Shown here in pieces: positions 1,973 to 3,275 of a stretch of DNA of 6,595 nucleotides (positions within the stretch are counted from its first letter, which is position 1; each line of letters starts with the position of its first letter). Made by a program: the position numbers and the translations under genes. The stretch comes from Escherichia coli (GTDB lineage: Bacteria > Pseudomonadota > Gammaproteobacteria > Enterobacterales > Enterobacteriaceae). The stretch is from NCBI RefSeq assembly GCF_003334815.1, contig NZ_QOWO01000068.1, one strand, 5' to 3'. The notes under the pieces are model-generated. The model saw nothing but the letters and a program-made list of their open reading frames with translations. It was not told the origin of the DNA and did not search any database.

Positions 1973-2000
1973 TTGACACTTTATCACTGATAAACATAAT
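1973..2000 (+). promoter_or_regulatory. Candidate tetA promoter (-35 TTGACA 1973-1978, -10 CATAAT 1995-2000, 16-bp spacer) overlapping operator O1
   Basis: Consensus-like hexamers read directly from the sequence. The transcription start is not determinable from sequence alone. Confidence 0.5.
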
Positions 2001-2028
2001 ATGTCCACCAACTTATCAGTGATAAAGA
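1978..2028. promoter_or_regulatory. Two palindromic tet operators (tetO1, tetO2) in the tetR-tetA intergenic region
   Basis: ACTTTATCACTGATAAACA at 1978-1996 and CAACTTATCAGTGATAAAGA at about 2009-2028. Both contain the inverted core TTATCA-C/G-TGATAA typical of TetR operators. Confidence 0.85.
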
Positions 2029-2075
2029 ATCCGCGCGTTCAATCGGACCAGCGGAGGCTGGTCCGGAGGCCAGAC

Positions 2076-3275
2076 GTGAAACCCAACAGACCCCTGATCG
2101 TAATTCTGAGCACTGTCGCGCTCGACGCTGTCGGCATCGGCCTGATTATGCCGGTGCTGCCGGGCCTCCTGCGCGATCTGGTTCACTCGAACGACGTCAC
2201 CGCCCACTATGGCATTCTGCTGGCGCTGTATGCGTTGATGCAATTTGCCTGCGCACCTGTGCTGGGCGCGCTGTCGGATCGTTTCGGGCGGCGGCCGGTC
2301 TTGCTCGTCTCGCTGGCCGGCGCTGCTGTCGACTACGCCATCATGGCGACGGCGCCTTTCCTTTGGGTTCTCTATATCGGGCGGATCGTGGCCGGCATCA
2401 CCGGGGCGACTGGGGCGGTAGCCGGCGCTTATATTGCCGATATCACTGATGGCGATGAGCGCGCGCGGCACTTCGGCTTCATGAGCGCCTGTTTCGGGTT
2501 CGGGATGGTCGCGGGACCTGTGCTCGGTGGGCTGATGGGCGGTTTCTCCCCCCACGCTCCGTTCTTCGCCGCGGCAGCCTTGAACGGCCTCAATTTCCTG
2601 ACGGGCTGTTTCCTTTTGCCGGAGTCGCACAAAGGCGAACGCCGGCCGTTACGCCGGGAGGCTCTCAACCCGCTCGCTTCGTTCCGGTGGGCCCGGGGCA
2701 TGACCGTCGTCGCCGCCCTGATGGCGGTCTTCTTCATCATGCAACTTGTCGGACAGGTGCCGGCCGCGCTTTGGGTCATTTTCGGCGAGGATCGCTTTCA
2801 CTGGGACGCGACCACGATCGGCATTTCGCTTGCCGCATTTGGCATTCTGCATTCACTCGCCCAGGCAATGATCACCGGCCCTGTAGCCGCCCGGCTCGGC
2901 GAAAGGCGGGCACTCATGCTCGGAATGATTGCCGACGGCACAGGCTACATCCTGCTTGCCTTCGCGACACGGGGATGGATGGCGTTCCCGATCATGGTCC
3001 TGCTTGCTTCGGGTGGCATCGGAATGCCGGCGCTGCAAGCAATGTTGTCCAGGCAGGTGGATGAGGAACGTCAGGGGCAGCTGCAAGGCTCACTGGCGGC
3101 GCTCACCAGCCTGACCTCGATCGTCGGACCCCTCCTCTTCACGGCGATCTATGCGGCTTCTATAACAACGTGGAACGGGTGGGCATGGATTGCAGGCGCT
3201 GCCCTCTACTTGCTCTGCCTGCCGGCGCTGCGTCGCGGGCTTTGGAGCGGCGCAGGGCAACGAGCCGATCGCTGA
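2076..3275 (+). CDS. tetA: Tetracycline efflux MFS transporter TetA, class A (399 aa, GTG start)
   Basis: Protein from the GTG reads MKPNRPLIVILSTVALDAVGIGLIMPVLPGLL..., the TetA(A) N-terminus, with multiple hydrophobic segments throughout. GGAGG at 2065-2069 lies 6 nt upstream of the GTG. The track's in-frame ATG at 2001 sits inside the operator region and would add 25 residues. Confidence 0.93.
   Translation: MKPNRPLIVILSTVALDAVGIGLIMPVLPGLLRDLVHSNDVTAHYGILLALYALMQFACAPVLGALSDRFGRRPVLLVSLAGAAVDYAIMATAPFLWVLYIGRIVAGITGATGAVAGAYIADITDGDERARHFGFMSACFGFGMVAGPVLGGLMGGFSPHAPFFAAAALNGLNFLTGCFLLPESHKGERRPLRREALNPLASFRWARGMTVVAALMAVFFIMQLVGQVPAALWVIFGEDRFHWDATTIGISLAAFGILHSLAQAMITGPVAARLGERRALMLGMIADGTGYILLAFATRGWMAFPIMVLLASGGIGMPALQAMLSRQVDEERQGQLQGSLAALTSLTSIVGPLLFTAIYAASITTWNGWAWIAGAALYLLCLPALRRGLWSGAGQRADR

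What the first reader, a model, noticed from the sequence alone, without database searches (positions are those of the whole stretch)
1973..2078. tet control region: operators overlap the promoter, and the first ATG of the tetA reading frame lies inside the operator interval
Two palindromic operators (1978-1996 and about 2009-2028) overlap a TTGACA/CATAAT promoter pair. The long ORF begins at ATG 2001 between the operators, but a strong GGAGG (2065-2069) precedes the in-frame GTG at 2076, which gives the canonical MKPNRPL... N-terminus and 399 aa. A similar nine-codon over-extension affects tetR. Automatic gene callers are likely to over-extend both genes.
Basis: partly seen in the sequence, partly recalled or inferred. 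Interest (0 to 1): 0.25.

Follow-up and report, generated by a model that had tools for sequence, protein, structure and literature searches.

The report
tet(A) control region, over-called starts
This is the well-known on/off switch of the class A tetracycline-resistance genes, and the longer reading frames that run into it are annotation artefacts, so the finding is correct but ordinary.

Summary
Window 1971-2075 is the tetR(A)-tet(A) intergenic control region. The window is 100% identical along its whole length to E. coli plasmid pE2863-1, and the tet module occurs in more than 4,000 plasmids.

Two perfect 13-nt palindromes, TTATCA(C/G)TGATAA at 1981-1993 and 2013-2025, interleave with two overlapping divergent promoters.

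The real tet(A) start is GTG 2076, giving 399 aa. It has a GGAGG six nucleotides upstream (-9.5 kcal/mol against the 16S rRNA 3' end). The real tetR start is ATG 1970, giving 216 aa.

Supporting evidence:
- NCBI's PGAP annotation pipeline, Swiss-Prot, the NCBIfam profiles and PDB 5MRU all use these starts.
- N-termini align across tet classes A, B, C, D and G.
- A natural tet(A) variant carries a TGA stop and a 22-bp duplication inside the "extension".
- ATG 2001 directly abuts the -10 hexamer, so it lies upstream of the predicted transcript start.

That is why it has no ribosome-binding site and why gene callers over-extend it.

Both over-extended proteins (424 and 225 aa) are abundant in public databases. 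The tet(A) two-start question was studied experimentally (Wang et al. 2014), and a later paper cites that work for GTG as the primary start.

Verdict: confirmed, already known, low interest.

The parts
1320..1970 (-). tetR(A), class A tetracycline repressor, 216 aa, true start ATG at 1970
   Evidence: PGAP places it here as WP_000164043.1. It scores 304.8 bits against NCBIfam NF010319 (cut-off 265), with the profile starting at residue 12 of the long form. PDB 5MRU chain of 216 aa aligns to residues 10-225 of the long form. N-termini of classes B, C, D and G align to this ATG.
1971..1997 (-). Spurious nine-codon tetR extension (MFISDKVSS) starting from ATG 1997-1995
   Evidence: It is part of the ORF 1320..1997. 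GC is 0.33 against 0.64 in the gene body. A weak GGUGG Shine-Dalgarno (SD)-like match (-5.4 kcal/mol) probably attracts gene callers. It is annotated in OW849185, JX469833 and OW849134. It lies upstream of the published leaderless transcript start.
1973..2000 (+). tetA promoter: -35 TTGACA 1973-1978, 16-nt spacer, -10 CATAAT 1995-2000; predicted transcript start near A2007
   Evidence: The promoter scan scores it 11 of 12. Classes B, C, D and G have the same TTGACA, operator, -10 layout. The transcript start is inferred from geometry and was not measured here.
1978..2007 (-). tetR promoter: -35 TGGACA 2007-2002, 18-nt spacer, TG-extended -10 TAAAGT 1983-1978; places +1 at or next to A1970
   Evidence: The promoter scan scores it 9 of 12 with a TG before the -10. 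Seven bases (GTCAAGC) separate the -10 from ATG 1970. This fits the published leaderless tetR mRNA.
1978..1996 (.). tet operator O1, core palindrome TTATCACTGATAA 1981-1993. It fills the tetA promoter spacer and contains the tetR -10
   Evidence: It corresponds in position to Tn10 O1.
2009..2028 (.). tet operator O2, core palindrome TTATCAGTGATAA 2013-2025. It covers about +3 to +22 of the predicted tetA transcript
   Evidence: The centre-to-centre spacing to O1 is 32 bp, compared with 30 bp in Tn10 and 28 bp in class D.
2001..2075 (+). Spurious 25-codon tet(A) extension (MSTNLSVIKNPRVQSDQRRLVRRPD). From about 2007 onwards this is really the 5' untranslated leader of tetA mRNA
   Evidence: ATG 2001 has no SD (+0.6 kcal/mol). 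It directly abuts the -10 hexamer. An IncHI2 tet(A) variant has a TGA in this frame plus a 22-bp duplication. DNA similarity to tet(C) starts at window 2077 (H92). No Tet profile covers residues 1-26.
2043..2066 (+). GC-rich hairpin in the tetA leader, CGGACCAGC-GGAG-GCTGGTCCG. Its 3' arm overlaps the first two G of the SD
   Evidence: Perfect 9-nt inverted repeat 2044-2052 / 2057-2065. It is present in the minimum-energy and centroid folds. Folded alone it gives -19.5 kcal/mol. Its function is untested.
2065..2069 (+). Shine-Dalgarno GGAGG for tet(A), six nucleotides before the GTG
   Evidence: The duplex with the 16S rRNA 3' end is -9.5 kcal/mol. It is conserved in the IncP and IncHI2 alleles.
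2076..3275 (+). tet(A), class A tetracycline efflux MFS transporter, 399 aa, GTG start
   Evidence: PGAP places it here as WP_000804064.1. It scores 892 bits against NCBIfam NF012193 (cut-off 840). Published residue numbering (ASF at 201-203) fits only the 399-aa form. PMC4750697 refers to 'primary start codon GTG'.

Best explanation
Window 1971-2075 is the divergent control region of the class A (RP1/Tn1721-type) tetracycline resistance determinant.

**Architecture.** Two sigma-70 promoters point in opposite directions and interleave.
- The tetA promoter has -35 at 1973-78 and -10 at 1995-2000.
- The tetR promoter has -35 at 2007-2002 and -10 at 1983-1978.
- RNA polymerase can probably occupy only one of them at a time.

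**Repression.** Two palindromic operators bind TetR(A) dimers.
- O1 lies in the tetA promoter spacer and contains the tetR -10, so it should block both promoters.
- O2 covers the start of the tetA transcript.
- Tetracycline-Mg2+ releases TetR, and both genes are then transcribed.

**tetA expression.** tetA mRNA is predicted to start near A2007. It has a leader of about 69 nt containing a GC-rich hairpin. It is translated from GTG 2076 using the GGAGG at 2065-2069, giving the 399-aa pump.

**tetR expression.** tetR mRNA starts at or next to the A of ATG 1970. It is a leaderless mRNA, so it has no ribosome-binding site, and it gives the 216-aa repressor.

**The extra in-frame ATGs.** The ATGs at 2001 (+) and 1997 (-) are by-products of the AT-rich promoter core CATAATATG. 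The minus-strand ATG is the CAT of the tetA -10. The plus-strand ATG directly abuts that -10 and overlaps the tetR -35. Both lie upstream of their own gene's transcript start. The 424-aa and 225-aa reading frames are therefore annotation artefacts.

**Shown here:** the sequence features, homology, annotation practice, and the variant that breaks the extension.
**Taken from the literature:** the leaderless tetR mRNA, GTG as the primary start, and TetR-operator binding.
**Inferred:** the tetA transcript start, and which operator controls which promoter (by analogy with Tn10).
For: **Identity**
- The window is 100% identical over all 6,595 bases to pE2863-1.
- The module is present in 1,893 of 5,426 complete E. 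coli genomes and in 4,230 plasmids.

**Operators and promoters exceed chance**.

**Starts**
- PGAP coordinates.
- NCBIfam profile boundaries.
- PDB 5MRU has a 216-aa chain.
- Swiss-Prot names sit on the short forms.
- SD energies are -9.5 kcal/mol for GTG 2076, +0.6 for ATG 2001 and -0.4 for tetR ATG 1970.

**Comparative evidence**
- Classes B, C, D and G share the -35, O1, -10, O2 layout.
- Their TetA and TetR N-termini align to GTG 2076 and ATG 1970.
- None has an upstream in-frame ATG, apart from an extra Met directly before the annotated tetR(B) start in Tn10. Class B also has in-frame TTG and GTG codons upstream of tetA.
- tet(C) DNA similarity starts at window 2077.

**Natural test**
- The IncHI2 tet(A) allele matches the AMRFinder reference at 100%.
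- It has CGC changed to TGA in the extension frame and a 22-bp duplication that shifts ATG 2001 out of frame.
- It keeps the GGAGG-6 nt-GTG arrangement.

**Literature**
- Tn1721 tetR is cited as a classical leaderless mRNA: Klock & Hillen 1986 and Baumeister et al. 1991, as cited in PMC4633059, PMC7148126, PMC3017554 and PMC3293720.
- PMC4750697 describes tet(A) as having 'the primary start codon GTG', citing Wang et al. 2014.
- The Tn10 operator logic is described in PMC8966031.
Against: - The tetA transcript start was not measured here. I could not read a primary paper that maps it.
- The title of Wang et al. 2014 ('with two start codons') and the word 'primary' leave room for some initiation at ATG 2001 in their constructs.
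- Codon composition does not separate the tetA extension from the gene body (GC3 0.72 against 0.75).
- The 424-aa form carries an automatically assigned RefSeq-style 'MULTISPECIES' name.
- The primary papers on leaderless tetR are not held in the library, so that point rests on citing papers and on the title of Baumeister 1991.
Confidence: 0.92

Rival explanations
1. ATG 2001 is a genuine second start codon. A minor 424-aa TetA(A) isoform with a 25-residue basic cytoplasmic N-terminal extension would be made alongside the 399-aa protein, from read-through or alternative transcripts that include position 2001.
For: - The frame is open from 2001 to 2076 in the common allele.
- GC3 of the extension (0.72) resembles the gene body.
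- The title of Wang et al. 2014 speaks of 'two start codons', and the citing paper says 'primary' start codon.
- The extension is hydrophilic and on the cytoplasmic side, so it need not inactivate the pump (inference).
Against: - There is no SD before ATG 2001 (+0.6 kcal/mol).
- ATG 2001 directly abuts the -10 hexamer, so it is upstream of the predicted transcript start.
- The IncHI2 allele has a stop and a frameshift in the extension yet is called tet(A) at 100% identity.
- No homologous extension exists in classes B, C, D or G.
- No family profile covers it.
Confidence: 0.06
2. The 225-aa TetR(A) beginning MFISDKVSS is the real repressor. It would be translated from a leadered transcript of an upstream tetR promoter (TTATCA 2025-2020 / TATTAT 2001-1996, or further upstream) using the GGUGG at 2009-2005.
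For: - There is a weak SD-like GGUGG 7 nt before ATG 1997 (-5.4 kcal/mol).
- There is a second promoter-like site on the minus strand.
- Tn10 has two tetR promoters (PMC8966031).
- Several deposited annotations use this start.
Against: - ATG 1997 overlaps the -10 of that second promoter. Its transcript would start near 1989, downstream of that ATG.
- The published tetR(A) mRNA lacks a 5' non-coding region.
- All homologues and the crystallised protein start at M-x-K/R-L.
- The extension has GC 0.33 against 0.64 in the gene, and it consists of operator O1 sequence.
Confidence: 0.02

Closest known systems
tet(A)/tetR(A) regulatory region of RP1 and Tn1721 (Waters et al. 1983; Klock & Hillen 1986; Allmeier et al. 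1992; the first cited from memory, the other two seen in reference lists)
   Same: It is this element. The DNA is 100% identical to thousands of deposited tet(A) modules. The protein products are identical to WP_000804064.1 and WP_000164043.1. The IncP-1 plasmid pWEC911 shares window 229-4076 at 99.7%.
   Different: Nothing in the control region differs. TetA here carries ASF at 201-203, the 'double frameshift' allele discussed in the tigecycline literature, rather than the SFV of RP1.
Tn10 tet(B) regulatory region (PA, PR1, PR2, tetO1, tetO2)
   Same: Both have divergent tetR and tetA genes, a TTGACA -35 followed by O1, then the -10, then O2, and 13-nt palindromic cores of the form TATCAnTGATA. 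The functional logic is described in PMC8966031.
   Different: - Operator spacing is 32 bp here against 30 bp in Tn10.
- The tetA leader after O2 is about 48 nt longer and contains a hairpin and a strong GGAGG.
- tet(A) uses GTG.
- tetR(A) starts 17 nt from the O1 centre against 34 nt in Tn10, which leaves no room for a leader. This is consistent with a leaderless mRNA.
Leaderless mRNAs of E. coli mobile elements (lambda cI from PRM, P2, Tn1721 tetR)
   Same: There is no SD before ATG 1970 (-0.4 kcal/mol). An extended -10 lies at the correct distance to start transcription at the A of the ATG. Tn1721 tetR is one of the founding examples of this class.
   Different: None. It is that example itself.

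Membership tests
Tet(A) class A tetracycline efflux MFS transporter (NCBIfam NF012193) | Whole-protein score at or above the curated cut-off of 840 bits, with full-length profile coverage | tested here: met
   892.2 bits. Profile positions 1-394 of 394 match residues 27-420 of the 424-aa translation. PGAP names the identical DNA tet(A).
TetR(A) / tetracycline repressor (NCBIfam NF010319; PDB 5MRU) | Score at or above 265 bits, and near identity to the solved class A repressor | tested here: met
   304.8 bits. PDB 5MRU chain A of 216 aa aligns from end to end with E = 3e-137. The protein is identical to WP_000164043.1.
Tn10-type tet control region | Divergently transcribed tetR and tetA separated by about 80-130 bp | tested here: met
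   105 bp lie between ATG 1970 (-) and GTG 2076 (+). Classes B, C, D and G have 81-103 bp.
Tn10-type tet control region | Two palindromic tetO operators with core TATCAnTGATA, one between -35 and -10 of the tetA promoter and one just downstream of the -10 | tested here: met
   Cores at 1981-1993 and 2013-2025, with none expected by chance. Tn10 and class D have the same layout.
Tn10-type tet control region | TetR binds the operators and is released by tetracycline-Mg2+ | not testable with these tools
   Literature only: Klock & Hillen 1986, and PMC9550176 for TetR(A)-dependent induction of tetA(A).
Leaderless mRNA | Transcript 5' end at or within a few nucleotides of the A of the start codon | not testable with these tools
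   Not measurable from sequence. It is published for Tn1721 tetR (cited). The promoter geometry fits: the -10 TAAAGT ends at 1978, seven bases before A1970.
Leaderless mRNA | No Shine-Dalgarno sequence upstream of the start codon | tested here: met
   The best duplex with the 16S rRNA 3' end is -0.4 kcal/mol in the 20 nt before ATG 1970.

The most novel reading that the evidence does not exclude
ATG 2001 is used at a low level, for example on read-through transcripts from upstream. This would give a 424-aa TetA(A) isoform with a basic 25-residue N-terminal tail. In addition, the GC-rich hairpin that abuts the Shine-Dalgarno sequence (2043-2066), which is duplicated in part in the IncHI2 allele, would tune translation from GTG 2076. 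Together these would add a post-transcriptional layer to tet(A) control that has not been described.
Probability: 0.06. Interest if true: 0.3.

Novelty: already known. Interest (0 to 1): 0.08.

Why it matters
The only consequences are practical. tet(A) is one of the commonest resistance genes; it is in about a third of complete E. coli genomes in this collection.

Inconsistent start calls (424 against 399 aa, and 225 against 216 aa) have three effects:
- they inflate the number of apparent protein variants;
- they shift residue numbering for resistance mutations by 25;
- they hide the control region inside 'coding' sequence, leaving only a 3-bp gap between the two gene calls.

The locus is also a clean teaching case of why leaderless genes are systematically over-extended by gene callers that look for a ribosome-binding site. 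No new biology follows from the finding.

Tried and rejected
- **Codon composition.** GC3 of the 25-codon tetA extension (0.72) lies within the range of 25-codon windows in the gene body (0.60-0.96). It does not help to choose between the starts.
- **Whole-leader fold.** Folding 2007-2110 gave z = -1.08, which is not significant. Only the local hairpin is strong.
- **Rfam.** No RNA family matched anywhere in the window at gathering thresholds, so the leader is not a known riboswitch or attenuator.
- **Primary papers.** Baumeister 1991 (PMC328697, and one PubMed id I guessed wrongly) and Wang 2014 (by DOI) are not held in the library. I rely on citing papers and titles. I did not try to fetch Klock & Hillen 1986.
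- **Leaderless tetA from A2001.** I considered this as a mirror image of tetR. The O1 palindrome does give TGATAAAC on the plus strand. I rejected it because that -10 would lie only 12 nt from the consensus -35 and 4 nt from the ATG. The 11-of-12 TTGACA-16-CATAAT promoter also ends at 2000, directly against the ATG.

Full report
**1. The observation**

- TTGACA lies at 1973-1978 and CATAAT at 1995-2000, separated by 16 nt.
- The consensus scan scores this pair 11 of 12. It finds four promoter-like sites in 1800-2300 against 0.2 expected from shuffles.
- The operator cores TTATCACTGATAA (1981-1993) and TTATCAGTGATAA (2013-2025) are perfect 13-nt palindromes.
- They are the only matches in the window, with none in 200 shuffles.
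- They are exact reverse complements of each other over 15 nt.
- ATG 2001, GGAGG 2065-2069 and GTG 2076 are all present.
- The mechanical ORF list gives 2001..3275 (424 aa) and 1320..1997 on the minus strand (225 aa).

**2. What the locus is**

The whole 6,595-base window is 100% identical to E. coli plasmid pE2863-1.
- The 2-kb tetR-tetA module matches 1,893 of 5,426 complete E. coli genomes and 4,230 plasmids.
- NCBI's PGAP annotation pipeline annotates tetR(A) at window 1320-1970 (WP_000164043.1, 216 aa).
- It annotates tet(A) at window 2076-3275 (WP_000804064.1, 399 aa).
- NCBIfam confirms both memberships above their curated cut-offs.
- The Tet(A) profile begins at residue 27 of the long translation and the TetR profile at residue 12.
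- The solved class A repressor, PDB 5MRU, is a 216-aa chain beginning MTKLQ.

**3. Which starts are real: tet(A)**

GTG 2076 is the real start.
- *Ribosome binding.* GTG 2076 has a -9.5 kcal/mol duplex with the 16S rRNA 3' end at the right spacing. ATG 2001 has none, at +0.6 kcal/mol.
- *Promoter geometry.* ATG 2001 directly abuts the last base of the -10 hexamer. A transcript from TTGACA-16-CATAAT should start near A2007, so the ATG would not be in the mRNA. This step is inferred from geometry, not measured.
- *Similarity to class C.* DNA similarity to tet(C) of pSC101 begins at window 2077 (H92).
- *Other classes.* TetA N-termini of classes A, B, C, D and G align at this start. None has an upstream in-frame ATG; class B (Tn10) does have in-frame TTG and GTG codons upstream.
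- *A natural variant.* An IncHI2 tet(A) allele is about 93% identical in DNA and is called tet(A) at 100% identity by AMRFinder. It changes CGC to TGA in the extension frame. It also carries a 22-bp duplication (CAGCGGAGGCTGGTCCGGAGGC) that shifts ATG 2001 out of frame. It keeps GGAGG-6 nt-GTG unchanged.
- *Published numbering.* The literature places the ASF/SFV loop at residues 201-203. That fits only the 399-aa form; it would be 226-228 in the long form.
- *Published experiment.* PMC4750697 states that tet(A) has 'the primary start codon GTG'. I could not read that paper itself.

**4. Which starts are real: tetR**

ATG 1970 is the real start.
- The N-termini MTKLQ (A), MTKLD (G), MNKLQ (C), MSRLD (B) and MARLN (D) all align at ATG 1970.
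- The nine extra codons have GC 0.33 against 0.64 for the gene, and they consist of operator O1 sequence.
- Neither start has a good ribosome-binding site. ATG 1970 scores -0.4 kcal/mol. ATG 1997 scores -5.4 kcal/mol through a GGUGG.

Tn1721 tetR is one of the classical leaderless mRNAs of E. coli.
- The sources are Klock & Hillen 1986, J Mol Biol 189:633, and Baumeister et al. [quoted passage not shown]
- They are cited in PMC4633059, PMC7148126, PMC3017554, PMC3293720 and PMC5101355.
- The sequence fits. A minus-strand promoter, TGGACA (2007-2002), 18 nt, TG-extended TAAAGT (1983-1978), ends seven bases before A1970.
- tetR(A) starts only 17 nt from the O1 centre. The distance is 34 nt in class B and 38 nt in class D. 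This leaves no room for a leader.
- The extension therefore lies upstream of the transcript. The weak GGUGG explains why gene callers that look for a ribosome-binding site choose the wrong ATG.

**5. How the region works**

The two promoters interleave in this order:
- tetA -35 at 1973-78
- tetR -10 at 1978-83
- tetA -10 at 1995-2000
- tetR -35 at 2002-07

O1 occupies the tetA promoter spacer and contains the tetR -10. O2 covers about +3 to +22 of the predicted tetA transcript and lies directly upstream of the tetR -35. By analogy with Tn10 (PMC8966031), TetR on O1 should repress both genes and TetR on O2 should repress tetA. Tetracycline releases TetR.

The two spurious ATGs are by-products of the AT-rich promoter core CATAATATG (1995-2003). 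The CAT is the first half of the tetA -10 and reads as ATG on the other strand. The plus-strand ATG overlaps the tetR -35.

**6. Do gene callers over-extend?**

Yes.
- The 424-aa product is indexed in 11,760 blocks of assemblies.
- In all five loci displayed it sits next to a 225-aa tetR call, leaving a 3-bp 'intergenic' gap.
- Both long forms and both short forms are each seen on at least 1,000 contigs, which is the counting cap.
- Three non-RefSeq records (OW849185, JX469833, OW849134) place tet(A) correctly at the GTG but extend tetR by nine codons.

**7. Novelty and verdict**

- the link to the leaderless tetR mRNA;
- the transcript-start argument for ATG 2001;
- a natural allele that breaks the extension;
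- the pointer to the 2014 experimental study.

The remaining uncertainty is whether ATG 2001 contributes a minor isoform. That possibility is suggested only by the words 'two start codons' and 'primary'. I put it at about 6%. Interest is low.

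Noticed in passing
window 392-969: There are nine copies of an iteron-like repeat of about 17-18 nt, (G)CCCCTCA(AG/TC/AA)TGTCA(A/G), arranged as 5 + 3 + 1. From memory this matches the IncP-1 (RK2/RP4) oriV iteron TGACA..TGAGGGGC. The IncP-1 plasmid pWEC911 shares window 229-4076 at 99.7%, including all nine copies. Only 339 of 4,780 matching plasmids carry this full left flank. The window therefore seems to carry a fossil, or possibly intact, IncP-1 replication origin next to tetR. It is unannotated in the RefSeq record.
   Followed up: partly
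window 2043-2066; L006 1069-1195: A strong GC-rich hairpin (-19.5 kcal/mol alone) lies in the tetA leader. Its 3' arm pairs the first two G of the Shine-Dalgarno sequence, and a second GGAGG sits in its loop. The IncHI2 tet(A) allele duplicates 22 bp comprising the 3' half of the hairpin plus the SD. No Rfam match was found, and its function is unknown.
   Followed up: partly
window 1-76: The last 43 bases of merR (by mapping to pE2863-1) are followed by, and overlap, a 38-bp sequence at 39-76, CTTAGCGTGCTTTATTTTCCGTTTTCTGAGGTGCCCCC. From memory this is a Tn21-family terminal inverted repeat. The IncP-like sequence begins directly at 77.
   Followed up: partly
window 1046-1288 (+): An 80-aa ORF just upstream of tetR is named 'transposase', 'relaxase', 'relaxase/helicase' or 'hypothetical protein' in different records. 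It is probably a gene fragment that travels with the tet module.
   Followed up: no
window 3307-4191 (-) and 4329-4736 (-): The neighbouring genes also have inconsistent starts between annotations. The EamA/DMT transporter is called at 286 or 294 aa. The isochorismatase/cysteine hydrolase is called at 130 or 135 aa.
   Followed up: no
window 4725-6509: A Tn3-family (TnAs1/Tn1721-type) transposase gene lacks its N-terminus. It ends inside a 38-bp terminal inverted repeat, CTTAGCGTACGATTTTTTCCGAATTCTGCGGGCTCCCC, at 6472-6509. I recognised the repeat from memory as the Tn1721 IR.
   Followed up: partly
window 2676-2684 (TetA residues 201-203): TetA here has ASF at 201-203. This is the 'double frameshift' allele relative to RP1 SFV. 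Its effect on tigecycline susceptibility is debated in the literature.
   Followed up: partly
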